Below, piece after piece: positions 45,429-56,699 of a stretch of 64,000 nucleotides of DNA. The notes under the pieces are model-generated. The model did no database searches. It saw only the letters and a program-made list of their open reading frames with translations, and was not told the origin of the DNA. Position numbers and translations under genes: made by a program. Source of the DNA: a virus (Duplodnaviria > Heunggongvirae > Uroviricota > Caudoviricetes); IMG/VR virus record IMGVR_UViG_3300048625_000166; one strand, written 5' to 3'. How positions within the stretch are numbered: position 1 is the stretch's first letter; each line of letters begins with the position of its first letter.

Positions 45429-45444
45429 AATTCTTAGCAATAAT

Positions 45445-45514
45445 TTTTTAAAGAACATCACTGATTTCTCAGTGTCAATACAAGTATTGTATAAGGTTTT
45501 TAATTCACTGTCAA
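45445..45514 (-). promoter_or_regulatory. sigma70 promoter followed by boxB-boxA antitermination site
   Basis: TTGACA-17-TACAAT; CACTGA-GAAA-TCAGTG; TGTTCTTTAAAAA. Confidence 0.75.
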
Positions 45515-45544
45515 CAACTTTTTTAAGATTGTTAACCATTTTAT

Positions 45545-45620
45545 TGGAGCGGGAGGCGGGAGTCGAACCCGTCTATTTCAGTTTGGAAGACTAACGTGTA
45601 ACCACAAACACTTCACCCGC
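45545..45620 (-). tRNA. tRNA-Gly(TCC)
   Basis: Loop CTTCCAA, CCA. Confidence 0.9.
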
Positions 45621-45632
45621 ATAAATAACTTT

Positions 45633-45797
45633 ATGCATATCTATGACGCTATCACAAACTCTGGATTACACATCCACTTGTCCATGAGCGCCGATAATAC
45701 ATTTTACATTCTAGTATACGACATTGATAACTTCATGTTAACTATGAAATTTTTCAACAATGTAGATACTGCAATGCAATTTATCCATTCACTATGA
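45633..45797 (+). CDS. Small hypothetical protein (54 aa), antisense to the tRNA array
   Basis: ATG 5 nt after ATAAATA; ATGA overlap with the next ORF. Confidence 0.5.
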   Translation: MHIYDAITNSGLHIHLSMSADNTFYILVYDIDNFMLTMKFFNNVDTAMQFIHSL

Positions 45798-45985
45798 GTA
45801 GCCCAACAGATTACGAAATCTTATATAGATTAAACACTAGTCCATATGCAGAGACTAAGAGTTGGGTACTGCCTAATACATTCAAAGCAATGTTCTCAAA
45901 TGAGAACTTACCTGAATTTGTTATTGATGAACTATTAAAGAAACAGACGTTTAAATTAGACGATCAGTTTCCTCAATACAAATAA
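45794..45985 (+). CDS. Small hypothetical protein, antisense to the tRNA array
   Basis: 63-aa ORF ending just before the tRNA-Trp 3' end. Confidence 0.5.
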   Translation: MSSPTDYEILYRLNTSPYAETKSWVLPNTFKAMFSNENLPEFVIDELLKKQTFKLDDQFPQYK

Positions 45986-45987
45986 TC

Positions 45988-46063
45988 TGGCATCCCGGGA
46001 GGGATTTGAACCCCCAACTTACGGTTTTGGAGACCGTTGCTCTGCCAATTGAACTACCGAGAT
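45988..46063 (-). tRNA. tRNA-Trp(CCA)
   Basis: Loop CTCCAAA, G73, CCA. Confidence 0.95.
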
Positions 46064-46069
46064 ATATAA

Positions 46070-46132
46070 AACAGGATGCTTATTTTTCAATTAAAAGTTG
46101 AATTATAAGATGTTGCTGGACGCATCCTAAAA
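46070..46132 (-). ncRNA. Y-like RNA A5 displaying a Lys(TTT) anticodon stem-loop
   Basis: AGGATGCGTCCAGCAA...TTCAA-CTTTTAA-TTGAA...AAGCATCCTG. Confidence 0.75.
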
Positions 46133-46134
46133 CT

Positions 46135-46224
46135 TGGCGGAAACGGTGAGATTCGAACTCACGGACCCTTTGAAAGATCGCCGGTTTTCAAGACCGGAGC
46201 CATAGACCACTCGACCACGTTTCC
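46135..46224 (-). tRNA. tRNA-Ser(TGA)
   Basis: Loop CTTGAAA, long variable arm, G73. Confidence 0.95.
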
Positions 46225-46238
46225 ATTAAAATATTTAT

Positions 46239-46322
46239 ACCATATGTAAACACACTAGCGTTTTTCACTAAACTACAACTTGACTGGACTTGACCAGTGA
46301 CTCTATTGTGCTTGCATATGGT
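46239..46322 (-). ncRNA. Long-stem RNA B4
   Basis: ACCATATGCAAGCACAATAG...TAGTGTGTTTACATATGGT. Confidence 0.55.
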
Positions 46323-46436
46323 GACAGTTTAGTCCGATAACTGCCAAGAGTTGTGGTGATCCGGCACACCTTTTATGTATAAGTTGACTACAAGAGGCTT
46401 ATACACTAGGGCCTTCACGTTGCCCTATTTTTTAAT

Positions 46437-46561
46437 ACCATATAGAAACACACTGTCGTTTCTCTTTCCAGTCTAGACAACCTCGCTTACGAAGCACGAT
46501 TATATCACAGGATTACGCATCCTGCTCGTCACTGTACTCAAGCAATGTGTTTTTATATGGT
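46437..46561 (-). ncRNA. Long-stem RNA B5
   Basis: ACCATATAAAAACACATTG...CAGTGTGTTTCTATATGGT; begins in the ACCA of tRNA-Lys. Confidence 0.55.
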
Positions 46562-46632
46562 AGGGGCACAGGGAATCGAACCCTGATAGACCGGTTAAAA
46601 GCCGGATATTCTAGCCGTTGAATTATACCCCC
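46558..46632 (-). tRNA. tRNA-Lys(TTT)
   Basis: Loop CTTTTAA, CCA. Confidence 0.9.
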
Positions 46633-46635
46633 ATA

Positions 46636-46710
46636 TGGTCCCAGTGCTGAGATTCGAACTCAGTTCTCTCGGCTTAAGAGGCCGGACTTCACCTTCAAAG
46701 TTTCTCTGGG
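46636..46710 (-). tRNA. tRNA-Lys(CTT)
   Basis: Loop CTCTTAA, CCA; atypical D arm. Confidence 0.8.
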
Positions 46711-46772
46711 ATGGATCGTAAGAAATTTTCTTTTACGTGCCATCTGAGACCATACGGGGGTCAAAGATGACA

Positions 46773-46796
46773 CTATCGTTTACCTGAACGTTTCAT
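46773..46796 (-). other. 7-codon mini-ORF MKRSGKR followed by two hairpins
   Basis: AAGGT RBS; ATG AAA CGT TCA GGT AAA CGA TAG; then GTGTCATCT/AGATGGCAC stem. Confidence 0.45.
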
Positions 46797-46809
46797 GTCA
46801 TTTACCTTT

Positions 46810-47166
46810 TTAAGATTTAAGTGCTTTTAAAATATTATCCCAAGATTCAGTTGGATTATGACCTTGATCTAGCAAGGCAACATAAGTCTTAACTGCATCT
46901 TCTGGAATCTTGAAATAGATGTTTGCGTAGGTGCAGTCGAATGAATCATCTTCATCACGAACGTACCATGGATGACTTGACATTTCATCAAATACATCTT
47001 CATAGTCTTCACGATTGCCACCACCATTACGTGTGTGAACAACAATGTGACCATCTTCTACATAAACATCACGAAAGCGACCGAAGTCACCTTTTGTTTT
47101 ATCTAACAGACTCAGGAGTTGATCCGAGTTAGGGTTAGTGCCAAACATCATGTTATACAAACTCAT
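46810..47166 (-). CDS. Hypothetical protein
   Basis: AAGGAG RBS before MSLYNMMFG; ORF-track extension overlaps tRNA-Cys. Confidence 0.7.
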   Translation of the reverse strand: MSLYNMMFGTNPNSDQLLSLLDKTKGDFGRFRDVYVEDGHIVVHTRNGGGNREDYEDVFDEMSSHPWYVRDEDDSFDCTYANIYFKIPEDAVKTYVALLDQGHNPTESWDNILKALKS

Positions 47167-47264
47167 TTCATTCTCCTTTGTTAATTTGTGGAAGTTCCGA
47201 TAGCACCCATCGTCACTTACAACCGTTGAGTAGCCTTGCATCAAAACAGTGCTACTATTTGCTC

Positions 47265-47339
47265 TGGAGGACAGGATAGGAATCAAACCTACCTAGAACG
47301 GATTTGCAATCCGCCACATAATCGCTCTGTCACCTGTCC
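47265..47339 (-). tRNA. tRNA-Cys(GCA)
   Basis: Loop TTGCAAA, U73; T loop TTTGATT. Confidence 0.85.
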
Positions 47340-47348
47340 ATATTTTGT

Positions 47349-47436
47349 TGGCGGAGCATGTAGGAATCGAACCTACTCACCTCTTTCGAAATGATGGATT
47401 AGCAATCCATTGCCTTAACCGGTCGGCCAATGCTCC
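47349..47436 (-). tRNA. tRNA-Ser(GCT)
   Basis: Loop TTGCTAA, long variable arm. Confidence 0.95.
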
Positions 47437-47451
47437 GTAAAATATCTGATT

Positions 47452-47620
47452 AAAAATCATAAAATAGTGTATTCAGCTGGCAGACTGCAACAAGATACTA
47501 TCCTCTAATATATTAGTATCACAGTGATATTAAGTTCCGGACCCTAATATCACCAAAGTCTGGCAAATAAGATATATAAATTCAAAGTTTATTAAATGAA
47601 TACACTAATTTATGATTTTT
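47452..47620 (-). ncRNA. Long-stem RNA B8 with internal multi-way junction
   Basis: AAAATCATAAATTAGTGTATTCA...TGAATACACTATTTTATGATTTT. Confidence 0.55.
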
Positions 47621-47696
47621 GGTGGGCCCAACAGGACTCGAACCTGTGGCCAAGGAATTATGAGTTCCCTGCTCTAACCAACTGAGCTATAGGCCC
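47620..47696 (-). tRNA. tRNA-Ile2(CAT)
   Basis: GGGCCTATAGCTCAG body typical of lysidine-modified Ile2; loop CTCATAA. Confidence 0.85.
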
Positions 47697-47706
47697 ATAA
47701 TCTAAA

Positions 47707-47886
47707 ACCATATTATAATACACTCCCAATGCATGTCAAGCACTGTAACTTCATGGTACATCTTGAACCACAGTTTCGAACCTGTGAAATGTAGCACTAT
47801 CTAGTATCAACTCTTTCGAATTCAAAACATACTAGACCCGGCAAGCTGGGGCCTCTATATATGACAAGAGTATACTATAATATGGT
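47707..47886 (-). ncRNA. Long-stem RNA B6
   Basis: ACCATATTATAGTATACTC...GAGTGTATTATAATATGGT; begins in the ACCA of tRNA-Leu; internal T-arm-like CACAG-GTTCGAAA-CTGTG. Confidence 0.55.
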
Positions 47887-47969
47887 GCGGGTGGCCGGAA
47901 TCGAACCGGCACGGTGTCTCCACCGACGGATTTTAAGTCCGTTACGTCTACCTATTTCATCACACCCGC
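47883..47969 (-). tRNA. tRNA-Leu(TAA)
   Basis: Loop CTTAAAA, long variable arm. Confidence 0.95.
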
Positions 47970-47976
47970 ATATTAC

Positions 47977-48053
47977 TGGCGCCTCGTAGGGGACTCGAAC
48001 CCCTGGCCTCTTGCGTGACAGGCAAGCGATCTAACCAACTGAGCTAACGAAGC
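47977..48053 (-). tRNA. tRNA-Asp(GTC)
   Basis: Loop CTGTCAC, G73. Confidence 0.95.
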
Positions 48054-48058
48054 GTAAA

Positions 48059-48210
48059 TGGTGGGCTATCGCGGATTCAAACCACGCAACAACTCTATGT
48101 TGTAGAGTTAGGATTTCCAATCACTCTAAAGCCTATAAATTCATCACCGTTGACGTTTTACCATTGAAAGACACGGTGCCATCTGTCTCAGTCGCATTAC
48201 CTATCACCCC
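48059..48210 (-). ncRNA. 152-nt tRNA-like RNA (Ser-GGA-like loop, expanded D region)
   Basis: GGGTGAT/ATAGCCC-ACCA acceptor, T arm CGTGG-TTTGAAT-CCGCG, loop TTGGAAA, variable hairpin ACAAC/GTTGT. Confidence 0.55.
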
Positions 48211-48259
48211 ATGCTCGGATTCATAGATAGGCATTCTACTGATAATTCAATGTTTATCT

Positions 48260-48346
48260 TGGTGGATGCGGCTGGAGTTGAACCAGCAGTGCCTTTCGGG
48301 CGGCGGGTTTACAGCCCGCTGGGGTTACCAATTTTCCTACACATCC
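48260..48346 (-). tRNA. tRNA-Tyr(GTA)
   Basis: Loop CTGTAAA, long variable arm. Confidence 0.95.
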
Positions 48347-48347
48347 A

Positions 48348-48776
48348 TTATTTGTTTTTGCCACACCAAGTGTCAGTCTGTGAATGACAATTGGGACAGA
48401 GTAATCTTAAGTTTTTAAACTTGTGATTGTGATTATCGCCGTCTATGTGATCTAAATGTAGAGAAATTTCTTTTCCCATCCATTCTTCTAATCCACACGA
48501 CGAGCATTTGTTATCTAATATTTTTTCTTTTAACAAACGCTTTTTCAGTTTTAGTGTTTGATATGTAGGATGCAATCCTTCTAGAATTTCATTCAACTCT
48601 ATCTTCTTTGCACCACCACCTATCTTAAAATCTAAACCTAATCTTTTTGCTCTACGCCAAACTGTAACATCTGGCACATTAAAATAATGTGCTAACTTGC
48701 TCAAGACTGGCGTAATGTTATACTGTTCTATCAATTCAGTATCTGTAAACTTTTCTGTACTATGTTTTTGTTTCAT
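48348..48776 (-). CDS. HNH endonuclease with N-terminal HTH-like segment
   Basis: CSSC...LHLDHIDGDNHN...NLRLLCPNCH; ATAAATA 4 nt upstream. Confidence 0.85.
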   Translation of the reverse strand: MKQKHSTEKFTDTELIEQYNITPVLSKLAHYFNVPDVTVWRRAKRLGLDFKIGGGAKKIELNEILEGLHPTYQTLKLKKRLLKEKILDNKCSSCGLEEWMGKEISLHLDHIDGDNHNHKFKNLRLLCPNCHSQTDTWCGKNK

Positions 48777-48819
48777 ACAGTATTTATGAAAAGTTAGATA
48801 TGAAATCTAAAAATAAACT

Positions 48820-48896
48820 TGGTGCCCCCAGCGGGACTCGAACCCGCAGAATCTTGATTTTGAGTCAAGCACGTATACCAATTCCATCACAAGGGC
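48820..48896 (-). tRNA. tRNA-Leu(CAA), short variable loop
   Basis: Loop CTCAAAA. Confidence 0.9.
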
Positions 48897-48901
48897 AAAA
48901 A

Positions 48902-49017
48902 GAAACATACTAGCGATCTACTGTTGTTGTGATTGAACACAGGACTTAGTATAAGTCGTCCCAACTCCGCATCTTTTTAACACAAGTCCTGCGGTTGCTT
49001 GTGAGCTAATATATTTC
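48902..49017 (-). ncRNA. Long-stem structured RNA
   Basis: GAAATATATTAGC/GCTAGTATGTTTC outer stem; CAGGACTT/AAGTCCTG inner stem. Confidence 0.5.
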
Positions 49018-49024
49018 AAAAACT

Positions 49025-49100
49025 TGGTACTCCGTATGGGAATCGAACCCATCTTACCAACGTGAAAGGCTGGTGTCCTAAACCGATAGACGAACGGAGC
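49025..49100 (-). tRNA. tRNA-Glu(TTC)
   Basis: Loop CTTTCAC. Confidence 0.95.
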
Positions 49101-49110
49101 ATAGTTATTC

Positions 49111-49209
49111 ACTATATGTAAACACAAAAGCAATACTAACCGGGCGGTCGATATCGGCGTTAGCCAAGTCACTTACCCAGACTTTCAAACTAATGTGCTT
49201 ACATATAGT
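49111..49209 (-). ncRNA. Long-stem RNA B7
   Basis: ACTATATGTAAGCACATTAG...TTTGTGTTTACATATAGT. Confidence 0.55.
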
Positions 49210-49242
49210 GACTGCTTCACAGCAGTGTATATGTTGGTTGTT

Positions 49243-49312
49243 TTTTTAAAGAACAGTGCTGATTTCTCAGCGTCAATACATGTATTGTATAACATGTTTG
49301 AATCATTGTCAA
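49243..49312 (-). promoter_or_regulatory. sigma70 promoter followed by boxB-boxA
   Basis: TTGACA-17-TACAAT; GCTGA-GAAA-TCAGC; TGTTCTTTAAAAA. Confidence 0.75.
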
Positions 49313-49320
49313 ACTATTTT

Positions 49321-49435
49321 TAAGTATTTTAGATGGATTCGAACCATCGTTTCACTGGCGATTCCCACCATACAGTTACTATGACTTCACTGTGTGGGCC
49401 CTTGCGTCCTAAGCCCCTAGACGATAAGACACTTA
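49321..49435 (-). ncRNA. 115-nt tRNA-like RNA with an expanded anticodon region and no CCA
   Basis: D arm GTCT-AGGGGCTTAG-GAC, T arm GATGG-TTCGAAT-CCATC, AAGTGT/ATACTT acceptor. Confidence 0.55.
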
Positions 49436-49441
49436 GAAATA

Positions 49442-49520
49442 GTCTGACAAATTGTTAAAGAACAGTGATTGATTTCTCAATCGATACACGTATTGTATGC
49501 GAGTTTTTATTTAGTGTCAA
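49442..49520 (-). promoter_or_regulatory. sigma70 promoter followed by rrn-leader-like boxB-boxA
   Basis: TTGACA-17-TACAAT; GATTGA-GAAA-TCAATC; CACTGTTCTTTAACAATTTGTCAGAC. Confidence 0.85.
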
Positions 49521-49565
49521 GCGTTTCCTAAAATATTTTGATAAATAGTTAAAAGGAACCCCAAA

Positions 49566-50063
49566 ATGAAAAAGTACGCAACATTAAGCATTGATAGCTC
49601 AACTCTAGCAACTGAAATCATGACATATTTGAAATCTTCAATCGATGTTGAGGATAACGATCATCATATCCATGCATTTCACGTGTTAAATTTGACTGAT
49701 CTTGCCAACACTACACTCAACACTACGTTTACCGGATTAACCGCAAAATTCGTGGGGCATTTGACAATCAATGGCAGTCAAATGTTTAATCATTGCTATG
49801 ATTCTGCATTTATGCTTATTCCATTGGAAGATTGTGAATCAACAGTGGTTAAGATTTTTGACGTTGCTCCTGGCGCAGTATTTAATCCAACTGACTCTTG
49901 CTACATGGACCAAGACTGCACACTAGCAAATGCATTGCCACTTACATCACCTATTGTGATTAGTGCGAATACAACTCACACCATTGAAACAACCAACTTC
50001 ACAAAACTAGCAGATGTGTTAATGATCATCTTCAATGAAGATGTATCAACGTTACTAGCTTAA
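49566..50063 (+). CDS. Hypothetical protein, antisense to the tRNA array
   Basis: ATAAATA at 49541 and AAGGA RBS; 165 aa. Confidence 0.65.
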   Translation: MKKYATLSIDSSTLATEIMTYLKSSIDVEDNDHHIHAFHVLNLTDLANTTLNTTFTGLTAKFVGHLTINGSQMFNHCYDSAFMLIPLEDCESTVVKIFDVAPGAVFNPTDSCYMDQDCTLANALPLTSPIVISANTTHTIETTNFTKLADVLMIIFNEDVSTLLA

Positions 50064-50064
50064 G

Positions 50065-50139
50065 TGGTCCGGCGTAGTGGAATCGAACCACTATAATCAC
50101 TTTAGAAGAATGATGTCCTATCCGTTGAACGAACGCCAG
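50065..50139 (-). tRNA. tRNA-Arg(TCT)
   Basis: Loop CTTCTAA. Confidence 0.9.
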
Positions 50140-50164
50140 ATAACTGATAGCATATCACAATAAA

Positions 50165-50203
50165 AAGAAAAAGTCAAGAGATTTTTAGTTTCTTGACTTT
50201 TTT
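50165..50203. terminator. Terminator-like hairpin overlapping a -35 box (TTGACT...TATGCT)
   Basis: AAAAAGTCAAGA-11 nt-TCTTGACTTTTT. Confidence 0.55.
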
Positions 50204-50206
50204 GTT

Positions 50207-50282
50207 TGGCTCCCCTACGTGGGCTCGAACCACGGACATTTTGATTAACAGTCAAACGCTCTACCAACTGAGCTATAGGAGA
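50207..50282 (-). tRNA. tRNA-Asn(GTT)
   Basis: Loop CTGTTAA, G73. Confidence 0.95.
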
Positions 50283-50289
50283 ATAAATG

Positions 50290-50364
50290 TGGTGCCCTCG
50301 AGGTGAATCGAACACCTGATCCTCCGCTTACAAGGCGGATGCATTACCACTCTGCTACAAGGGC
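50290..50364 (-). tRNA. tRNA-Thr(TGT)
   Basis: Loop CTTGTAA. Confidence 0.95.
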
Positions 50365-50382
50365 ATAATTTTATTTATAGTG

Positions 50383-50411
50383 AGTATATCACAGCAAAAC
50401 TTTTTTGTCAA
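50383..50411 (-). promoter_or_regulatory. sigma70-type promoter
   Basis: TTGACA-17-TATACT. Confidence 0.75.
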
Positions 50412-50430
50412 GTCTTGCCATGATATCTTC

Positions 50431-50991
50431 CTACGAAAGCAAGATTCTAGAATGCTTTGGCACACCTGCCATCAAGTATTCCATTTGGTCTGCAAGAATT
50501 GTTCGTTGTTGCAGAATCATGTTTTCATAGTGGTTAGGTTCATAAGGAACATAAAGTAGTTCCATACGTGCTTCTTTCAAAGACTTATGACCCTTCTTAG
50601 AGTTACATTCCTTACATGCAGTAACTACGTTCATCCAAGTGTTGTCGCCGCCATGGTACCGAGGTACAATGTGGTCACGGCTTAGATTGTGATAGTTAGG
50701 GAAATGTCCACCACAGTATGCACAAACATACCGGTCACGACCAAACAATGTCTTGTTAGTCAATGCAACATGTGCGTGACGATGTGGGTTATAACCATGA
50801 CCCTTGATAGCAATAATAGAAGGAGATTCTAGGTAGCTTAGTGATCCGTCACGTTGTACGCCACCACGATACTTCGCAACAATTTCACCCATAGACCATG
50901 CTACGGAGTCAGTTGCGTGATATGCAATTGCGTCATCGTTTGAGATCCATTGCCGGGGAACTCCTGAAATATCTAGTGCTAGAACAGCCAT
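50431..50991 (-). CDS. HNH endonuclease (McrA/HNH_5-like)
   Basis: LFGRDRYVCAYCG...SRDHIVP...GGDNTWMNVVTACKECNSKKG. Confidence 0.9.
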   Translation of the reverse strand: MAVLALDISGVPRQWISNDDAIAYHATDSVAWSMGEIVAKYRGGVQRDGSLSYLESPSIIAIKGHGYNPHRHAHVALTNKTLFGRDRYVCAYCGGHFPNYHNLSRDHIVPRYHGGDNTWMNVVTACKECNSKKGHKSLKEARMELLYVPYEPNHYENMILQQRTILADQMEYLMAGVPKHSRILLS

Positions 50992-51036
50992 GCTTTTCTC
51001 CTTTGTGTTACTGTCTACATTTATTTAATGTTCCTT

Positions 51037-51111
51037 TGGAGGGTCGTACAAGATTCGAACTTGTGACTGCTGGTTTCGAAGACCAGAACTCTTCCACTGA
51101 GCTAACGACCC
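51037..51111 (-). tRNA. tRNA-Arg(TCG)
   Basis: Loop CTTCGAA. Confidence 0.9.
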
Positions 51112-51120
51112 ATGTTAATG

Positions 51121-51149
51121 ATTATATGACAAACACCATTATTTGTCAA
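51121..51149 (-). promoter_or_regulatory. sigma70-type promoter
   Basis: TTGACA-17-TATAAT. Confidence 0.8.
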
Positions 51150-51152
51150 ACT

Positions 51153-51228
51153 TGGTGGCCTCGGGCGGGATCGAACCACCGACACATGGATTTTCAATCC
51201 ACTGCTCTACCATCTGAGCTACGAGGCC
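51153..51228 (-). tRNA. tRNA-Phe(GAA)
   Basis: Loop TTGAAAA. Confidence 0.95.
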
Positions 51229-51229
51229 A

Positions 51230-51403
51230 TTATTTTTGTTCTGGTATCTTACGCAAGCTATCTAGCTTCACTAGACAATCACGTTGAGTACCCATTCTGA
51301 ATACGCGCAGATAATCTACGCCATCAATCTTTTGAATGTCCTTCATGTTTTTACAGAAGAACTTTTCCTTGTTTCTGACATTTTCGAAATAAGTTGTTTT
51401 CAT
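51230..51403 (-). CDS. Small hypothetical protein (57 aa)
   Basis: AAGGAG RBS before MKTTYFE. Confidence 0.6.
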   Translation of the reverse strand: MKTTYFENVRNKEKFFCKNMKDIQKIDGVDYLRVFRMGTQRDCLVKLDSLRKIPEQK

Positions 51404-51417
51404 ATCATTCTCCTTCT

Positions 51418-51494
51418 TGGTACCCCAGATGGGACTCGAACCCACAGATACAACGACCTCAACGTTGCGTGTCTACCAATTCCACCACCGGGGC
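51418..51494 (-). tRNA. tRNA-Leu(GAG), short variable loop
   Basis: Loop TTGAGGT. Confidence 0.9.
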
Positions 51495-51602
51495 ATATAT
51501 TAGTGCCAGGTTGTCCTTGTCCCTAGCGTTGCGGCAAGTTGTTTTAGGTTTTGCTTTTACTATGGATCCGCTTTACCTTAAACCACAAAAGGATTTAAAC
51601 AC

Positions 51603-51692
51603 TGGCAGAGAGTAAGGGATTCGAACCCTTGTGCCGCGCTAGCGACCATCACCTTTCCAAGATGCGCCCTTAAGCCTCTCGGGCAACTCTCT
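51603..51692 (-). tRNA. tRNA-Ser(GGA)
   Basis: Loop TTGGAAA, long variable arm. Confidence 0.9.
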
Positions 51693-51697
51693 ATATT

Positions 51698-51796
51698 TGG
51701 TGCCTCTGGCAGGACTCGAACCTGCACACTGTGGCTTATCTAGCCACTGCTTTGGGGAGGTATAAGCTCCCTTCTTTACCATTAAGCTACAGAGGC
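51698..51796 (-). tRNA. tRNA-Ile(TAT) with a long variable arm (99 nt)
   Basis: GGGAG-CTTATAC-CTCCC; variable hairpin GTGGCT/AGCCAC. Confidence 0.8.
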
Positions 51797-51803
51797 ATTA
51801 TCT

Positions 51804-51895
51804 TGGCGGAAAGCAGAGGAGTCGAACCCCATCCCCGTTAGGAGAACCCAGTTTTCAAGGCTGGTCGGCACACCAACGCGCCTGCATTACTTTCC
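51804..51895 (-). tRNA. (8/4)-fold tRNA-Ser(TGA)
   Basis: 8-bp acceptor GGAAAGTA/TGCTTTCC, 4-bp T stem, 5-bp D stem, loop CTTGAAA. Confidence 0.75.
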
Positions 51896-51896
51896 T

Positions 51897-52901
51897 TTAT
51901 TTTTTGACGCCACGGGATGGATTGAGCAATTCATGTAGATGCTCAATATATCGGTGGACTTCTTGATACACTAATTTTAGGTATCGTCTACGAACCTGCA
52001 CTTCTTGTGGGTTGCGCGGTTCGGCGAATCTATTGCTGATTCTATTGTTTATGTAAGAAATGATATCTTCACTTTCAATGCGAGGAATATCTTGTAGTCT
52101 TTCAACTTTATCTAAGCCATTTGCTTTAATAACGTCTAATGCCATTTGATGTGCAAATGCGGCAATTTCTTGTGGACTAGCATAATACAAGTCGTAGTAA
52201 CGATCTTTGTTCTTAGACTTTACAGCCTTTTGTGCGGCGCTGTAGAACTCACCCTTAGTTTTATCTAAGTAGCTACGATATTCAGTCTTGCCTAGTGGTC
52301 TATGTGCCTGTTGCTTGTGTTGAACTAAGTGTACTGCCTCGTGAACTACAATTGATACAATCTTGTCGATTGCACTGTCCATGTCTTTCAAAAGTACATT
52401 AAGAATTTCTCTGTCATTAGATTTCAACATCTTGAACAAGAAACTCATGCCCTTTGTTCTATCGCCTGCCTCATAATTGTCATACAAATAAATGCTAAAA
52501 CGATTCATGATTGTACGAGCAATTGCTGGCAAGTAAGCACGATTAATAACCATGTTAGAACCCTGTGCGTAACCGCCCATGCCCTTCATGGTACCAAATC
52601 TGAACTTAGATATTGCGTCTTTACCAAGGATCTTTTCCAAGGTAAGTTTCATTTGTTTGGTAATACCTTTTTCAATCTTTTCATTACCTTCACGTTGCAT
52701 GAACTCACGTACATAACGATCACTTAGGTTATCGTCGTTTAAGATTTCTTGCAAGTTTGGATTGTTCATGAATGACTTTTCCAATGCAGACACGCCATTA
52801 ATAATGCCGTCTTTAACAGCCCTTGACAAGTCTTCTTCATACTTGGTCATACTTATGGCTTCATCGACCACTTCTTCATTAACAAATTCAAATATACGCA
52901 T
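51897..52901 (-). CDS. Hypothetical protein with HExxH motif
   Basis: Start MRIFEF 8 nt after ATAAATA; VVHEAVHLVQ. Confidence 0.6.
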   Translation of the reverse strand: MRIFEFVNEEVVDEAISMTKYEEDLSRAVKDGIINGVSALEKSFMNNPNLQEILNDDNLSDRYVREFMQREGNEKIEKGITKQMKLTLEKILGKDAISKFRFGTMKGMGGYAQGSNMVINRAYLPAIARTIMNRFSIYLYDNYEAGDRTKGMSFLFKMLKSNDREILNVLLKDMDSAIDKIVSIVVHEAVHLVQHKQQAHRPLGKTEYRSYLDKTKGEFYSAAQKAVKSKNKDRYYDLYYASPQEIAAFAHQMALDVIKANGLDKVERLQDIPRIESEDIISYINNRISNRFAEPRNPQEVQVRRRYLKLVYQEVHRYIEHLHELLNPSRGVKK

Positions 52902-52922
52902 AGTACATATATTTATCTTATT

Positions 52923-53000
52923 TGGTGTGTCCTGTTGGAATCGAACCAACTTCTCCGATTTTTCAGACCGGCGCTGAATGACCACACTAGCTCAGGACAC
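52923..53000 (-). tRNA. tRNA-Phe(GAA), second divergent copy
   Basis: Loop CTGAAAA. Confidence 0.85.
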
Positions 53001-53001
53001 A

Positions 53002-53364
53002 TTAAATTGTTTTATATCTTTTATCTTTTTGCTTGTGTTCTACGTCCCACTTGATTGCGGCGCCAGAACAAAACTTTTCATCTTTCCAGAATCTTGCTCC
53101 ATTCAATATGAATGGCTTCAATACTCTATCACCGTTCCACCAACCACGTTGGCATTTAATGAAGCCTTTTGCTTCTAATTCGTTTCGTAGTTCTTTGAAC
53201 TCTGGATGATCATCATGTGACAATGACTTACATCGATCCTCGCCCTTGATAATCTTAATCAATTGATCTGGTGTTAGTTCGTTTACTGGAATGTGATCAT
53301 ACATTCCCCACTCTTTTTCAATCTTAACATCACATAATGAATTCATGTCGATTTCAAACTTCAT
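53002..53364 (-). CDS. Hypothetical protein
   Basis: GGAGG RBS before MKFEIDM. Confidence 0.65.
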   Translation of the reverse strand: MKFEIDMNSLCDVKIEKEWGMYDHIPVNELTPDQLIKIIKGEDRCKSLSHDDHPEFKELRNELEAKGFIKCQRGWWNGDRVLKPFILNGARFWKDEKFCSGAAIKWDVEHKQKDKRYKTI

Positions 53365-53530
53365 GCTTCCTCCATTGTAGGTTTTTGAGCGCCCAACTAT
53401 CTTTCTCAAGGACTCACTGGATTGTCTCGTATGAAGGAGTTTAGCAACCTTGTACTGCTACTGGCGTGTCAGTCACAAGAATAGGGACCTAGCGCACAAG
53501 GGACTCTACTTCTACGTCTATCTCAAAAAT

Positions 53531-53585
53531 TGGTGGTAGGCTTTCCTGGCACATGTAACCAGTAAGGCCCGGGCGCCGCCTACCA
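53531..53585 (-). ncRNA. 55-nt CCA-ending minihelix-like RNA
   Basis: TGGTAGGC/GCCTACCA-CCA stem; inner CTGG/CCAG hairpin. Confidence 0.45.
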
Positions 53586-53594
53586 TAACTCGAA

Positions 53595-53676
53595 TGTGTG
53601 TTGTAGGATTCGAACCTACATCAGGAGGTTTTTAGGCCTCTTGTAATGATGCCCTAAACATTTATACGAAACACAC
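53595..53676 (-). pseudogene. Degenerate tRNA-like element
   Basis: GTGTGTT/AACACAC acceptor, T arm GTAGG-TTCGAAT-CCTAC, 8-nt loop CCTAAAAA, no CCA. Confidence 0.55.
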
Positions 53677-53681
53677 AAAAC

Positions 53682-53939
53682 TGGCTTCGTTAGCAAGACT
53701 CGAACTTGCGATAGTGGCTTCAAATCGCGTATGCTGGGTGCCACCGTGTTTCCCAAAGTTACCCTCGTATCCCCTCTGCTAGTTTATCTCACTTTTCTCA
53801 CATTTCGACCTGTTCCGCACTTCCCGGACTCACAGTGTTTGGTTTTAAAGCCTACGCGATTGTTATCTACTTTGTTTTACTAGTTGCCTTATTAATAGCA
53901 TACTCAATACTACTCTACCTTCCTCTACACTATAACGAA
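53682..53939 (-). ncRNA. 258-nt RNA with tRNA acceptor and T arm enclosing about 200 nt (tmRNA-like architecture)
   Basis: TTCGTTA/TAACGAA-G-CCA; GCAAG-TTCGAGT-CTTGC; internal ATCGCGTA/TACGCGAT helix. Confidence 0.65.
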
Positions 53940-53946
53940 ATAAAAT

Positions 53947-54022
53947 TGGCACCGTAGACGGGAATCGAACCCGCCGCGTCTTCATAGACAGTGAAGTATC
54001 ACCCCTAGGTGAACTCTACGGT
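53947..54022 (-). tRNA. tRNA-Asp(GTC), second divergent copy
   Basis: Loop CTGTCTA (U37), G73. Confidence 0.8.
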
Positions 54023-54027
54023 ATAAA

Positions 54028-54567
54028 TCATTTTACAACATCTTGCCAACGAATGACTAGTGATTTGTCGTAATTTTGAGTTTTGTTCTTTCTGCGATTT
54101 TCCAATGCAGGAAGATACTGAAAGTTATCAGGATGATGTAGACCTCCGCATGCCAATGGCACAATATGGTCGACTTCGTATCCAGTTGGACAACTCTCGT
54201 AAATTTTTCGAATTAACTGACTATCAACGTAATCAGGTGTTGCGTTGTACTTTCTCGCTCTATAGTTTTGTACATTCAACACATTTAATTTTGCAGATTC
54301 GTCTTTCGTTTTTCTTCCAACTTTATCCCAATAAGCTATTCTAGCCTCTGATATTTTGGCAGAATGTTCTGCTGTTCTCGGCTTAAGTTTCTTTCCTTTG
54401 GTACTGGTTTGCTTAATTGAACCAGAAGCAATTCCTTCTTTAACCGAGTTGGCTATTTTTCGTTTCGTTTCATCGGATCTAACTCTAGAGTTAGCACACG
54501 GTCTACAACAATACTTTCCTGATCCATATGATCCATCATGTTCACTATTACATTTGAGGCAAAACAT
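54028..54567 (-). CDS. HNH endonuclease with zinc-finger and NUMOD3-like repeats
   Basis: CLKC...CCRPC; SDETKRKI; YEVDHIVPLACGGLHHPDN...ENRRK. Confidence 0.85.
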   Translation of the reverse strand: MFCLKCNSEHDGSYGSGKYCCRPCANSRVRSDETKRKIANSVKEGIASGSIKQTSTKGKKLKPRTAEHSAKISEARIAYWDKVGRKTKDESAKLNVLNVQNYRARKYNATPDYVDSQLIRKIYESCPTGYEVDHIVPLACGGLHHPDNFQYLPALENRRKNKTQNYDKSLVIRWQDVVK

Positions 54568-54616
54568 ATTAAATTCCTTTAATATATTTATCGAACCTCG
54601 CTCATTCTTTAGTTTT

Positions 54617-54692
54617 TGGCTCCCCAGGATGGGATCGAACCACCGACATCCTGATTAACAGTCAGGCGCAACTACCGCTGTGCTACTGGGGA
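54617..54692 (-). tRNA. tRNA-Asn(GTT)
   Basis: Loop CTGTTAA. Confidence 0.95.
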
Positions 54693-54700
54693 ATAATTCT

Positions 54701-54775
54701 TGGTGCCTCCACCTGGGCTCGAACCAGGGACTCCCACCTTATCAAGATGATACTCTACCACTGAGTTATAGAGGC
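54701..54775 (-). tRNA. tRNA-Ile(GAT)
   Basis: Loop TTGATAA. Confidence 0.9.
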
Positions 54776-54785
54776 AATTAATTGT

Positions 54786-54859
54786 TGGTACCCAGTGCAA
54801 GAATTGAACTTGCGTCTATCGATTATCAGTCGATTGCTCTTCCGTTGAGCTAACCGGGC
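54786..54859 (-). tRNA. tRNA-Ile(GAT)
   Basis: Loop CTGATAA. Confidence 0.9.
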
Positions 54860-54865
54860 ATTGTT

Positions 54866-54941
54866 TGGTAGATGTGAGTGGATTCGAACCACCGACCTGC
54901 TCCGTATGAAGGAGATGCACTAGCCGCTGTGCTACACATCC
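54866..54941 (-). tRNA. tRNA-Met(CAT), elongator-type
   Basis: Loop TTCATAC. Confidence 0.8.
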
Positions 54942-54947
54942 ATTGTA

Positions 54948-55022
54948 TGGTGCTCCTTGACAGAATCGAACTGCCACCCCTAGATTACAAAACTAGTCCA
55001 CTACCATTATGATTAAAAGAGC
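54948..55022 (-). tRNA. tRNA-Thr(TGT), divergent copy
   Basis: Loop TTTGTAA, U31:U39 mismatch. Confidence 0.8.
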
Positions 55023-55029
55023 AAATAAA

Positions 55030-55145
55030 ACAGGATACATTCTTGACGAATGCTCTACCAATTGAGCTAATCTCGCATGAAGCGAAATGTTGGAATCGAA
55101 CCAACGACACATCGTTTGATGTAGTTTGCTGTATGTATCCTAAAA
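55030..55145 (-). ncRNA. Y-like RNA A6 containing a permuted tRNA (truncated anticodon arm)
   Basis: AGGATACATACAGCAA...ATGTATCCTG; ACATC-AAAC-GATGT, GTTGG-TTCGATT-CCAAC, ATTTCGC-TTCAT-GCGAGAT, GCTC-AATTGGTA-GAGC. Confidence 0.8.
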
Positions 55146-55146
55146 T

Positions 55147-55266
55147 TGGCGCCGCCGGAGGGATTCGAACCCCCATCTCTTCCTTGACATGGAATTTTTA
55201 TATGCTGAACGTACTCTGTACAGAGTCACTTTTTATAAGTGTCCTGATCCATTAGACGACAGCGGC
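55147..55266 (-). ncRNA. 120-nt tRNA-like RNA with about 45 nt inserted between D and anticodon arms
   Basis: GCCGCTG/CGGCGGC-G-CCA; T arm GGGGG-TTCGAAT-CCCTC; TTCC-ATGTCAA-GGAA (Asp GTC-like). Confidence 0.65.
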
Positions 55267-55273
55267 GATAAAT

Positions 55274-55347
55274 TGGTGCGGGGTAAGGGAGTTGAACCCT
55301 TGACTAAACGTTGGCAACGTTTGATTTTACCGTTAAACTAACCACGC
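55274..55347 (-). tRNA. tRNA-Gly(GCC), divergent copy
   Basis: Loop TTGCCAA; A73, acceptor mismatch. Confidence 0.8.
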
Positions 55348-55355
55348 ATAAAAAC

Positions 55356-55432
55356 TGGAATACGGAGTGAGATTTGAACTCACGAATAACTGGTTTGCAA
55401 TCAGTCCCCTTAGGCCGCTCGGGCATCCGTAC
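55356..55432 (-). tRNA. tRNA-Cys(GCA)
   Basis: Loop TTGCAAA, U73. Confidence 0.85.
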
Positions 55433-55442
55433 ATAAATTGAT

Positions 55443-55518
<76 letters not shown>

Positions 55519-55528
55519 AAATTCACTT

Positions 55529-55605
55529 AGGGGTGACCGGTGGGACTTGAACCCACAAAAACCTGAGTCACAGTCAGGGTCGTCTACCAATTCCGACACG
55601 GCCAC
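55529..55605 (-). tRNA. tRNA-His(GTG), no encoded G-1 or CCA
   Basis: Loop CTGTGAC, C73; 3' end CCT; flanks pair (ACTTAGG/CCTAAGT). Confidence 0.8.
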
Positions 55606-55631
55606 ACCTAAGTAAACTTAGGAGAAATAAA

Positions 55632-55694
55632 ACAGGATGCGTTTTTGCTTTTTACCAATAAAAGTTTTTTTAATTGCTGAATGCATCCTAAAAA
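55632..55694 (-). ncRNA. Y-like RNA A7
   Basis: AGGATGCATTCAGCAA...CTTTT-ATTGGTA-AAAAG...ACGCATCCTG. Confidence 0.7.
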
Positions 55695-56435: not shown

Positions 56436-56512
56436 TGGCGCCACCGAAGAGATTCGAACTCCTGACTCCTTCGTTCGTAGCGAAGTACTCTAATCCACTG
56501 AGTTACGGCGGC
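56436..56512 (-). tRNA. tRNA-Arg(ACG)
   Basis: Loop CTACGAA. Confidence 0.95.
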
Positions 56513-56520: not shown

Positions 56521-56624
56521 ACAGGATAGTTGTTTTGCAGGGGGAATTGAACCCCCAAGGTTTGATTAGAAGTCAAATTGTGAACCGTTCACATGCGTAT
56601 TGTTTGCTGTAACTATCCTAAAAC
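56521..56624 (-). ncRNA. Y-like RNA A8 containing D, anticodon (Arg TCT) and T arms in normal order
   Basis: AGGATAGTTACAGCAA...GTGAA-CGG-TTCAC, TTTGA-CTTCTAA-TCAAA, GGGGG-TTCAATT-CCCCC...AACTATCCTG. Confidence 0.8.
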
Positions 56625-56699
56625 TGGCATCCTGTACGGGAATCGAACCCGTCTTTATGACTTGAAAGGCCATCGTTCTTACCGATAAACTAACAGGAT
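56625..56699 (-). tRNA. tRNA-Glu(TTC), divergent copy
   Basis: Loop CTTTCAA. Confidence 0.85.

What the first reader, a model, noticed from the sequence alone, without database searches (positions are those of the whole stretch)
56521..56624. tRNA-Arg(UCU) core whose acceptor stem is replaced by the RNA handle
The D, anticodon and T arms are in normal order with only 3 bp of acceptor (GCA/TGC), continuing into the CAGCA-bearing helix. This third geometry shows the handle can be attached at the acceptor end as well as at 26/27. It could read or decoy for AGA but cannot be charged. A normal Arg(TCT) gene exists at 50065.
Basis: partly seen in the sequence, partly recalled or inferred. Interest (0 to 1): 0.7.

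Follow-up and report, generated by a model that had tools for sequence, protein, structure and literature searches.

The report
tRNA body on Y-RNA-like handle
A giant lake phage encodes, inside its tRNA operon, a conserved small RNA with a tRNA's D, anticodon and T arms whose amino-acid-accepting stem is replaced by the "handle" shared by RNAs that travel with a Ro60-like ring protein. It is most likely a non-chargeable tRNA look-alike that displays an anticodon arm, not a broken tRNA gene.

Summary
On the minus strand at 56619-56523 lies a 97-nt element. A 9-bp terminal helix and an unpaired CAGCAAA enclose a tRNA-like core in normal order. The core has a D arm, a 7-nt anticodon loop CUUCUAA (UCU) and a T arm, but only a 3-bp acceptor remnant and no CCA. 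Rfam's tRNA model scores it 35.8 bits; ARAGORN does not call it.

It is not a decayed pseudogene. I found 66 relatives (52 distinct) in IMG/VR phage contigs and one in cultured Stenotrophomonas phage DLP_6. All five helices covary (95% of cells paired, 20 of 26 pairs compensatory). The acceptor remnant is 0-5 bp and never 7.

The loop frame is kept (U33 49/52, A37 52/52, U34 45/52), but the triplet varies (UCU 20, UUU 9, UCA 5, UCC 4, others).

The handle is shared by eight RNAs in this window and more than 200 elsewhere. They co-occur, on the same strand, with a DUF2828/DUF7788 gene whose predicted fold matches Ro60 over its full length.

Best reading: a Y-RNA-like partner of that protein, carrying an uncharged anticodon-arm-plus-elbow as bait or adaptor. 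Protein binding and function are inferred, not shown.

This scan has met the DUF2828-handle RNA pairing before on other DNA; the normal-order, acceptor-less cargo is the new point.

The parts
56523..56619 (-). Whole A8 element (97 nt): handle plus acceptor-less tRNA-like body
   Evidence: CM R1 scores it 120.2 bits. There is one copy in the complete 364-kb genome.
56611..56619 (-). 5' strand of the terminal (handle) helix, AGGAUAGUU
   Evidence: Pairs with 56531-56523. The helix is 91-96% paired across relatives and has compensatory pairs.
56603..56609 (-). Unpaired handle motif CAGCAAA
   Evidence: Invariant in the first 10 A8-type RNAs and at least 90% conserved in each position over all 52 distinct ones. 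The pattern RGGWTN5CAGCA has 8 exact hits in the window, all on the minus strand.
56594..56596 (-). 5' strand of the 3-bp acceptor remnant (GCA)
   Evidence: Pairs with UGC at 56539-56537. All three pairs show changes on both sides in relatives, for example ACA/UGU, GUA/UAC and GCU/AGC.
56579..56593 (-). D arm (4-bp stem, loop AACGGUU with G18 G19); no 8-9 linker before it
   Evidence: The GG of the loop is at least 90% conserved.
56561..56577 (-). Anticodon arm: 5-bp stem, 7-nt loop CUUCUAA, anticodon UCU at 56570-56568
   Evidence: The stem is 100% paired in 52 relatives.
56540..56556 (-). T arm GGGGG / UUCAAUU / CCCCC
   Evidence: It is 100% paired in relatives, and GGUUCNANUCC is conserved.
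56537..56539 (-). 3' strand of the acceptor remnant (UGC), followed by the A-rich linker AAAAC (56536-56532)
56523..56531 (-). 3' strand of the handle helix AACUAUCCU, followed by an invariant G (56522)
   Evidence: The CCUG end is at least 90% conserved.
56625..56699 (-). Upstream tRNA-Glu(UUC); its CCA end lies 5 nt before the handle
   Evidence: A 5-6 nt spacing recurs in 26 of 45 relatives.
56436..56512 (-). Downstream tRNA-Arg(ACG); its 5' end lies 10 nt after the handle
   Evidence: A 9-10 nt spacing recurs in 19 of 41 relatives.
39394..40815 (-). Presumed protein partner: DUF2828 + DUF7788 (vWA) protein, 473 aa, Ro60-like predicted fold
   Evidence: Pfam. PHROG 850 'RNA-binding protein', E 7e-147. 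AF2 model pLDDT 93.6. Foldseek: all 13 hits at E<=1e-3 are Ro60/TROVE proteins.
40846..55689 (-). Span holding the other seven handle RNAs of the window. 5' ends: 40904, 41110, 41368, 43728, 46128, 55141, 55689. Lengths: 59, 148, 248, 115, 56, 110, 56 nt.

Best explanation
A8 is a stable non-coding RNA cut out of the phage's polycistronic tRNA transcript. It belongs to a large, apparently undescribed family of 'handle' RNAs that accompany DUF2828/DUF7788 proteins, which are structural relatives of Ro60.

The handle has three features: a terminal 7-9 bp helix, an unpaired CAGCAAA on the 5' side, and an A-rich 3' strand ending in CCUG. By analogy with Ro60-Y RNA complexes, it is the docking site for the ring protein.

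The cargo is a tRNA body reduced to the parts that make the elbow and the anticodon arm. The accepting stem is only 3 bp and there is no CCA, so the RNA cannot be aminoacylated.

The particle therefore presents an uncharged anticodon arm with a canonical loop. It would act as bait, decoy or adaptor for a factor that recognises tRNA through the anticodon loop and elbow. Candidates are a tRNA-targeting nuclease, an anticodon-loop modification enzyme, or the ribosome's decoding site.

Shown: the structure, its conservation and covariation, the fixed spacing between tRNAs, the co-occurrence with the gene, and the Ro60-like predicted fold of the protein. Inferred: protein binding, non-chargeability, release by tRNA-processing enzymes, and the bait or adaptor role.
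For: Structure:
- The tRNA model scores 35.8 bits, with the acceptor deleted.
- There are 66 relatives, 52 distinct and 52-89% identical to A8. 95% of cells are paired against 36-47% in slid controls; 20 of 26 pairs are compensatory; the anticodon and T stems are 100% paired. The MAFFT alignment, which was not fitted to the structure, gives the same result.
- G-U pairs and the one-sided CAGCAAA make the structure strand-specific, so it exists at the RNA level.

Not a working tRNA:
- The acceptor remnant is 0-5 bp, most often 3 (27/52), and never 7. There is no CCA.
- Real tRNAs with the same anticodon coexist in the three complete genomes.
- The bodies are at most 80% identical to any real tRNA of the same locus.

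Loop: always 7 nt. C32 46/52, U33 49/52, U34 45/52, A37 52/52.

Same theme in the short family members: 52 of 97 carry a hairpin with a U33/R37 7-nt loop, against 3.2 +/- 1.8 in shuffles. The commonest loops are CUUUUAA and CUUCUAA.

Link to the protein:
- 8 exact handle motifs in the window, all on the gene's strand, three of them directly upstream of the gene.
- 35 of 119 handle-bearing locus slices carry the gene on the same strand.
- The gene is present in 8 of 10 records with an A8-type RNA. The other two records are 4-6% fragments.
- The AF2 model matches Ro60/Rsr and a phage Ro60 over its full length.

Processing: there is no own promoter, and the gaps to flanking tRNAs are fixed at 5-6 nt and 9-10 nt.

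Precedent: Y RNAs with tRNA-like modules are co-transcribed with tRNAs and bound by Ro60 (PMC4201824).
Against: The handle shows no similarity to the Ro60-binding motifs GGUCCGA or GNCGAA. By sequence the protein is not a TROVE family member: Pfam gives DUF2828 and DUF7788, with only a sub-threshold vWA_Ro60 hit. The docking mode is therefore an analogy.

A8 lies about 16 kb from the gene.

The anticodon triplet is not conserved. That fits several different targets, or weak constraint on positions 35-36.

Most members lack the 8-9 linker, so a true L-shape is not certain.
Confidence: 0.6

Rival explanations
1. It is a decaying tRNA-Arg(UCU) pseudogene. A duplicated tRNA lost most of its acceptor stem, and the flanking inverted repeat is incidental.
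For: The core scores as a weak tRNA (35.8 bits). A functional tRNA-Arg(UCU) with the same loop exists at 50065. Phage tRNA arrays do hold degenerate copies.
Against: 52 distinct relatives keep all five helices through compensatory changes, including the 3-bp remnant and the outer helix. CAGCAAA and CCUG are invariant or nearly so. The spacing to neighbouring tRNAs is fixed. The body is not a recent copy of any tRNA in the window.
Confidence: 0.04
2. It is a precursor of a working tRNA. The handle is removed, or itself serves as a long acceptor arm, and after processing and CCA addition the RNA is charged and decodes AGA.
For: M. smegmatis YrlA is cut by RNase P and receives CCA (PMC4201824). 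A few relatives have 4-5 bp remnants and a U8-A9-like linker, and ARAGORN calls those as tRNAs.
Against: No member has a 7-bp acceptor or an encoded CCA. Removing the handle leaves 3 bp. Keeping the handle gives an arm of 9 + 3 + 5 bp interrupted by a large internal loop, far longer than the 12-13 bp acceptor/T stack of tRNAs (established tRNA geometry). Genuine isoacceptors coexist in the same genomes. The anticodon varies among close relatives.
Confidence: 0.05
3. It is a processing or punctuation element of the tRNA operon. The tRNA-like fold and helix would guide RNase P, RNase E or RNase III cuts or stabilise the precursor, with no role in trans and no protein partner of its own.
For: It lies between tRNAs at fixed 5-6 nt and 9-10 nt distances and has no promoter.
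Against: The same handle is found on RNAs directly upstream of the DUF2828 gene, outside tRNA-to-tRNA spacers, with very different cargoes. The anticodon-loop frame (U33, A37, U34) is conserved, which punctuation would not need. Most tRNA junctions in these arrays have no such element.
Confidence: 0.1
4. It is a miniature mobile DNA element. The terminal inverted repeats would carry tRNA fragments, spread by the HNH endonucleases in the array.
For: There are terminal inverted repeats, many copies per genome, and HNH genes at 50431-50991 and 48348-48776.
Against: All copies lie on the transcribed strand. The helices contain G-U pairs that would be A-C mismatches on the other strand. The inner helix positions vary with compensation while the single-stranded CAGCAAA is fixed. 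No HNH gene is next to A8.
Confidence: 0.03

Closest known systems
YrlA-type bacterial and phage Y RNAs bound by Ro60/Rsr (Chen et al. 2014, PMC4201824; Wang et al. 2018, bioRxiv 10.1101/312249; Rfam RF02553)
   Same: Both are modular small RNAs. The 5' and 3' ends pair into a protein-docking stem with a conserved motif on the 5' strand. A second module mimics tRNA, with conserved D and T loops. They are encoded near, and on the strand of, a ring-plus-vWA protein, can be co-transcribed with tRNAs, and several occur per genome. A6 of this window and a similar RNA in L016 hit RF02553 full-length at 31-33 bits.
   Different: YrlA is circularly permuted (T arm, capped acceptor, D arm). It lacks an anticodon loop, and its stem joins at the anticodon stem. 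A8 is in normal order, keeps a canonical anticodon arm, and joins the stem at the acceptor end. The motif is CAGCAAA, not GNCGAA. By sequence the protein is DUF2828/DUF7788, not TROVE. A8 gives no RF02553 hit.
Class I RNAs of dictyostelid social amoebas (Rfam RF01414; Kjellin et al. 2021, PMC7919456)
   Same: Both have a short terminal stem conserved in structure but not sequence. Both have a conserved 5' G pairing with the C of a 3' CUGU. Both have an unpaired motif ending in CAGCAA right after the 5' strand, an A-rich 3' side, and a variable body. Short handle RNAs of this window and of L063 align full-length to RF01414 at 34.5, 26.1 and 33.1 bits.
   Different: All scores are below the gathering score of 41.5. 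Class I RNAs are about 60 nt, eukaryotic, have their own promoter, and are reported from Dictyostelia only. Their known direct binder is an RRM protein. A8 itself (97 nt, tRNA cargo) gives no RF01414 hit. Whether dictyostelids have a DUF2828 protein was not tested.
Canonical tRNA-Arg(UCU), such as the phage's own gene at 50065-50139
   Same: The 7-nt loop CUUCUAA is identical. The D-loop GG and the T-loop UUCAAUU are kept, as are a 5-bp anticodon stem, a 5-bp T stem and a 4-nt variable loop.
   Different: The acceptor is 3 bp instead of 7. There is no 8-9 linker, no discriminator and no CCA, and the ends are locked in a 9-bp helix. The stems are not similar in sequence to any real tRNA of the window.
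Other tRNA mimics (tmRNA tRNA-like domain, TYMV-type 3' tRNA-like structures)
   Same: They use the tRNA elbow as a recognisable shape. There are weak Rfam hits to Tymo_tRNA-like (18.4 bits) and tmRNA (16.3 bits) over the T arm.
   Different: Those mimics keep a free, chargeable CCA end and lack a true anticodon arm. A8 is the reverse.

Membership tests
tRNA (Rfam RF00005; functional tRNA gene) | Score at or above the Rfam gathering score (29 bits) | tested here: met
   35.8 bits, E 4e-6, in the relaxed-filter scan of 56400-56750. The match is lost by the default filters.
tRNA (Rfam RF00005; functional tRNA gene) | 7-bp acceptor stem with a free 3' end (discriminator plus CCA, encoded or addable) | tested here: not met
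   3 bp only, followed by AAAAC and the 3' strand of the outer helix. The remnant is 0-5 bp in 52 relatives. ARAGORN does not call the element.
tRNA (Rfam RF00005; functional tRNA gene) | D, anticodon and T arms in order, with G18G19, U33, purine 37 and a T-loop UUCRA | tested here: met
tRNA (Rfam RF00005; functional tRNA gene) | Aminoacylation and decoding | not testable with these tools
   Needs acid-gel Northern blots or in vitro charging.
YrlA / bacterial Y RNA (RF02553) | Rfam gathering score (69 bits) | tested here: not met
   No RF02553 hit on A8 at E<=10. A6 of the same window reaches only 31.3 bits.
YrlA / bacterial Y RNA (RF02553) | GNCGAA(N)G Ro-binding motif near the 5' end | tested here: not met
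   The 5' strand reads AGGAUAGUUACAGCAAA. The motif definition is from PMC4201824.
YrlA / bacterial Y RNA (RF02553) | Permuted tRNA-like module (T arm, closed acceptor stem-loop, D arm) without an anticodon loop | tested here: not met
   A8 has the normal order D, anticodon, T and a canonical anticodon loop. The YrlA geometry is described.
YrlA / bacterial Y RNA (RF02553) | Encoded near, and on the strand of, a TROVE-domain Ro60 orthologue | tested here: inconclusive
   The gene is on the same strand and in the same operon region, but 16 kb away. The protein is DUF2828/DUF7788 by Pfam. Its predicted fold matches Ro60 (TM 0.44-0.62, E down to 7e-9).
Dictyostelid Class I RNA (RF01414) | Rfam gathering score (41.5 bits) | tested here: not met
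   No hit on A8. The sister RNAs A7 and A1 reach 34.5 and 26.1 bits.
Dictyostelid Class I RNA (RF01414) | Short terminal stem, 5' G paired to the C of a 3' CUGU, and an unpaired motif ending CAGCAA after the 5' strand | tested here: met
   The ends are AGGAU...AUCCUGU with CAGCAAA one nucleotide after the 9-bp 5' strand. The feature list is from PMC7919456.
Dictyostelid Class I RNA (RF01414) | About 60 nt, own DUSE promoter, dictyostelid genome | tested here: not met
   A8 is 97 nt, sits inside a phage tRNA operon and has no own promoter.
DUF2828-associated handle RNAs (no published family found; defined here and in earlier notes of this scan) | Terminal 7-9 bp helix starting RGGWY and ending RWCCYG, covarying in its inner pairs | tested here: met
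DUF2828-associated handle RNAs (no published family found; defined here and in earlier notes of this scan) | Unpaired CAGCA(A) at a fixed distance after the start of the 5' strand (RGGWY, five bases, then CAGCA) | tested here: met
   8 exact pattern hits in the window, all on the minus strand. Invariant in the first 10 A8-type RNAs and at least 90% conserved over all 52.
DUF2828-associated handle RNAs (no published family found; defined here and in earlier notes of this scan) | Same record and strand as a DUF2828/DUF7788 gene | tested here: met
   Window gene at 39394-40815. 35 of 119 locus slices carry the gene. 8 of 10 A8-type records carry it, and the other two are small fragments. 0 of 14 control genomes carry DUF2828.
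DUF2828-associated handle RNAs (no published family found; defined here and in earlier notes of this scan) | Physical binding of the handle to the protein | not testable with these tools
   Needs RIP/CLIP, gel shift or a structure.

The most novel reading that the evidence does not exclude
Handle RNAs, with A8 as the fullest version, are a phage-encoded panel of uncharged anticodon-arm baits held on a Ro60-like ring. They would intercept or report host factors that attack or modify tRNA anticodon loops, such as tRNA-targeting immune nucleases. That would protect the phage's and host's real tRNAs, or couple tRNA damage to RNA surveillance. The displayed loops are mostly U34 types: UCU, UUU, UCC and UUC in A8-type RNAs, and UUU, UGU and UCU in the short RNAs. 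They include the loops of tRNAs that published work shows are cut by PARIS AriB: Lys-UUU and Thr-UGU.
Probability: 0.2. Interest if true: 0.85.

Novelty: new variant of a known kind. Interest (0 to 1): 0.66.

Why it matters
Known Y RNAs mimic the acceptor, T and D side of tRNA and lack an anticodon loop. This conserved class does the reverse: it keeps the anticodon arm and elbow and gives up the chargeable end. That points to a partner that reads anticodon loops, which is where much of the current bacterium-phage conflict over tRNA takes place.

It also shows that the handle is a portable docking module. It can be grafted on at either end of a tRNA body, or carry a bare anticodon hairpin.

The protein family is very large: 6083 representatives at 50% identity, and 692 cultured phage genomes including phages of E. 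coli, Salmonella, Listeria, Staphylococcus and Mycobacterium. Yet I found no paper describing its RNAs.

An A8-type RNA in cultured Stenotrophomonas phage DLP_6 makes the question directly testable.

Tried and rejected
- The search for related loci with the neighbouring 217-aa ORF (55742-56395) found nothing in IMG/VR.
- A first pattern for the collection scan was one specified base too short.
- An Rfam gathering-mode scan of 14 loci was swamped by tRNA rows, so it could not show whether any phage RNA passes the Class I threshold. Targeted E-value scans show only sub-threshold hits.
- No RtcB in the complete phage genome. No PADLOC family for the DUF2828 protein or its neighbours. No relevant Pfam domains in 20 other ORFs of the window.
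- phmmer of the protein against PDB sequences gave nothing. The profile put Ro60 first, but only at E 0.05. The fold comparison was needed.
- blastn of A8 against cultured phages found only half-length matches in two unannotated uncultured phage records. The CM found the DLP_6 copy.
- The MFE alternative that pairs UGC with the GCA inside CAGCA is rejected. CAGCAAA is invariant, while the GCA next to the D arm covaries with UGC.
- A8 as a recent copy of the phage's own tRNA-Arg(UCU) is rejected. Only the loop matches, and the stems differ.
- Avesson et al. 2011, on the proteins bound to Class I RNA, is not held in the library.
- The 110-nt spacer at 56700-56809 has no significant fold (z 0.19).

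Full report
**1. The observation**

The window is part of a complete 364,247-bp phage genome with terminal repeats. Its minus strand carries a long RNA array: 45 ARAGORN tRNAs and a GOLLD RNA. The finding lies between tRNA-Glu(UUC) (56699-56625) and tRNA-Arg(ACG) (56512-56436).

Read on the minus strand, it is a 97-nt element at 56619-56523:
- A 9-bp terminal helix, AGGAUAGUU/AACUAUCCU.
- One A, then CAGCAAA and a short linker.
- A tRNA-like core in normal order.

Rfam's tRNA model matches 56596-56536 at 35.8 bits (E 4e-6, gathering score 29). The D, anticodon (loop CUUCUAA, UCU) and T arms are intact, but only GCA/UGC is left of the acceptor and there is no 8-9 linker. ARAGORN and the default Rfam filters miss the element. 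The single-sequence fold gives the same arms (z -2.98). A normal tRNA-Arg(UCU) with the identical 7-nt loop is at 50065-50139.

**2. The handle is a family signature**

RGGWT-N5-CAGCA has eight exact matches in the window. All are on the minus strand between 40.8 and 56.6 kb. My own calculation expects about 0.5 exact matches by chance in 128 kb of both strands.

Each match has a 3' partner that closes a 7-9 bp helix. This gives RNAs of 56 to 248 nt with common flanks UUUU-AGGAU...AUCCU-GUUUU. Three of them sit directly upstream of the gene at 39394-40815.

A script found 221 helix-closed elements in those loci and the window.

**3. A8 represents a conserved subclass**

Ten elements from the first scan had the same architecture. 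They align well and covary: 96.5% of cells are paired, against about 40% when the partners are slid, and 15 of 26 pairs are compensatory. Those include all three pairs of the acceptor remnant, for example GCA/UGC, ACA/UGU, GUA/UAC and GCU/AGC.

A covariance model separates this class cleanly from everything else: 89-124 bits against 45 or less. Two further scans with A8-specific patterns raised the set to 66 matches, 52 of them distinct and 52-89% identical to A8. On this larger set:
- 95% of cells pair.
- 20 of 26 pairs show changes on both sides.
- The anticodon and T stems are 100% paired.

That alignment is fitted to the model. The MAFFT alignment, which is not fitted, gives the same picture.

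Positions conserved in at least 90% of the 52 are the handle (AGG, CAGCAAA, CCUG), the D-loop GG, U33, A37 and GGUUCNANUCC. The acceptor remnant is 0-5 bp, most often 3 (27/52), and never 7. No member has a CCA.

This rules out a decaying pseudogene and makes a chargeable tRNA very unlikely. The bodies are at most 80% identical to any true tRNA of the same locus (the values of 1.00 are ARAGORN calling the element itself). A real tRNA with the same anticodon is present in all three complete genomes.

**4. The anticodon arm**

The loop is always 7 nt: C32 46/52, U33 49/52, U34 45/52, A37 52/52, A38 44/52. The triplet varies: UCU 20, UUU 9, UCA 5, UCC 4, GAA 3, UUC 2, UGA 2, and seven singletons. 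The conserved thing is therefore a canonical, mostly U34 anticodon loop, not the AGA-reading triplet.

The short members of the handle family carry the same theme:
- 73 of 97 have a stem of at least 4 bp with a 7-nt loop, against 22 +/- 4 in shuffles.
- 52 have U33 and a purine at 37, against 3.2 +/- 1.8 (maximum 11) in shuffles.
- The commonest loops are CUUUUAA, CUUCUAA and CUUGUAA.

A8 is thus the version of an 'anticodon arm on a handle' that also keeps the D and T arms, which form the tRNA elbow.

**5. Context and processing**

Strong promoter-like sites lie at 58895 and 58797, and a terminator-like hairpin at 55721-55699. A8 has no promoter of its own.

In relatives, an upstream tRNA ends 5-6 nt before the handle in 26 of 45 cases. 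A downstream tRNA starts 9-10 nt after it in 19 of 41 cases. In several relatives the flanking pair is the same as here, Glu or Gly upstream and Arg(ACG) downstream.

I infer that RNase P cutting of the downstream tRNA and 3' maturation of the upstream tRNA release the element with short tails. Deinococcus Yrn2 is likewise made from a precursor with a tRNA.

**6. The protein**

The 473-aa product of 39394-40815 is DUF2828 plus DUF7788, with a sub-threshold vWA_Ro60 hit. It matches PHROG 850 'RNA-binding protein' at E 7e-147. The family is very large: 6083 representatives at 50% identity and 692 cultured phage records.

An AlphaFold2 model built from 85 sequences has a mean pLDDT of 93.6. In Foldseek against the PDB, all 13 hits with E<=1e-3 are Ro60/TROVE proteins aligned over the full length (TM 0.44-0.62). 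They include Xenopus and human Ro60, Deinococcus Rsr and Thermus phage Ro60. The next hits are isolated vWA domains. A sequence profile puts Ro60 first, but only at E 0.05.

Linkage to the RNAs:
- 35 of 119 handle loci contain the gene within the slice, always on the strand of the elements, which are mostly directly upstream.
- 8 of 10 records with an A8-type RNA carry the gene. The other two records are 4% and 6% fragments. None of 14 control genomes has DUF2828.

**7. Comparison with what is known**

YrlA-type Y RNAs are the closest functional parallel: an end-to-end stem with a protein-binding motif, plus a tRNA-like module, next to a Ro60 gene. But YrlA is permuted, has a capped acceptor and lacks an anticodon loop. 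A8 is the inverse. A8 gives no RF02553 hit, while the permuted sister RNA A6 hits it at 31.3 bits.

The handle itself resembles dictyostelid Class I RNAs. A7 and A1 of this window and an RNA in L063 align full-length to RF01414 at 34.5, 26.1 and 33.1 bits, below the gathering score of 41.5. The published features match: a short covarying stem, a 5' G paired to the C of a 3' CUGU, and an unpaired motif ending in CAGCAA.

I found no paper on RNAs of DUF2828 proteins. A jumbo-phage survey mentions only TROVE proteins 'with a tRNA-like partner'. Earlier notes of this scan describe the DUF2828-handle pairing and the Class I likeness on other genomes. I reached both independently before reading those notes.

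**8. Mechanism**

Most likely (0.6 for the package):
- The handle docks on the Ro60-like ring.
- The acceptor-less body cannot be charged.
- It serves as a displayed anticodon arm plus elbow.

What it is displayed to is open. Published tRNA-targeting immune nucleases cut Lys-UUU and Thr-UGU (PARIS AriB, PMC12409363). Those are among the commonest loops on the short handle RNAs. This is circumstantial and could reflect A+U-rich composition. I put the decoy or sensor reading at about 0.2.

**9. A test system**

The covariance model finds an unannotated A8-type RNA (77.4 bits) in cultured Stenotrophomonas phage vB_SmaS-DLP_6. It lies 6 nt after the annotated end of tRNA-Phe, displays the loop CUUUCAA, and the phage also has the DUF2828 gene.

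**Verdict**

The structural interpretation is supported. The functional interpretation is plausible but untested, and its AGA-specific form is weakened. This is a new variant of the Ro60/Y-RNA kind of system.

Noticed in passing
window 45320-45432 (-): A ninth Y-like RNA without the CAGCA handle. It has a stem of about 22 bp closing a T-arm-like hairpin. The fold z-score is -7.4, and Rfam YrlA scores it 32.3 bits (gathering score 69).
   Followed up: partly
window 55633-55688 (-), 40845-40903 (-); L063 4970-5025: Short handle RNAs align full-length to Rfam's Dictyostelium Class I RNA model (34.5, 26.1 and 33.1 bits; gathering score 41.5). They share the stem, the CAGCAA motif and the 3' CUGU. 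Class I RNAs are reported as unique to dictyostelids. Whether dictyostelids encode a DUF2828 protein was not checked.
   Followed up: partly
97 short handle RNAs in L001-L119 and the window: More than half carry a hairpin with a canonical anticodon-type 7-nt loop (U33, purine 37), about 16 times the shuffled expectation. The commonest loops are Lys-UUU (12), Thr-UGU (6) and Arg-UCU (5).
   Followed up: yes
L203 624-722 (KU682439.2 104923-105021, Stenotrophomonas phage vB_SmaS-DLP_6): An unannotated A8-type RNA (77.4 bits) lies 6 nt after the annotated end of tRNA-Phe(GAA) in a cultured phage that also has a DUF2828 gene (94038-95438). It displays the loop CUUUCAA.
   Followed up: partly
L192 3494-3607 (OR515478.1 77205-77318, Citrobacter phage Ci1): A 114-nt feature annotated 'tRNA-Pseudo-AAC / tRNA-OTHER' lies 600 nt downstream of the DUF2828 gene. 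It is probably a handle RNA with tRNA-like cargo that annotation pipelines call a pseudo-tRNA.
   Followed up: no
window 51603-51692, 51698-51796, 51808-51895, 57174-57258 (-): Over-long tRNA calls (Pro 90 nt, Glu-CUC 99 nt) and sub-threshold tRNA-Sec-like matches (36.6 and 28.1 bits). These are tRNAs with insertions or further tRNA-like RNAs in the array.
   Followed up: no
window 44325-44788 (-): A GOLLD RNA (203.5 bits) lies within the same RNA array. It holds an embedded tRNA-like element that ARAGORN reads with a 4-base anticodon (tttc).
   Followed up: no
L046 8029-8130, L013 37-143, L024 10328-10433: A further recurrent cargo type on the same handle. Its body is G+C-rich (GGCCGGCCCGC...GGGGGC) and ends in a T-arm-like hairpin. 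It fits neither the A8 class nor the YrlA-like class.
   Followed up: no
A8-type RNAs in L129, L166, L149, L140, L144, L153, L120, L167, L121, L176, L168, L165: A subgroup keeps a U8-A9-like linker, a typical GCUC...GAGC D arm and, in some, a 4-5 bp acceptor remnant, and ARAGORN calls these elements as tRNAs. Other members have 0-2 bp. Together this looks like a graded series from a captured tRNA to an acceptor-less body.
   Followed up: partly
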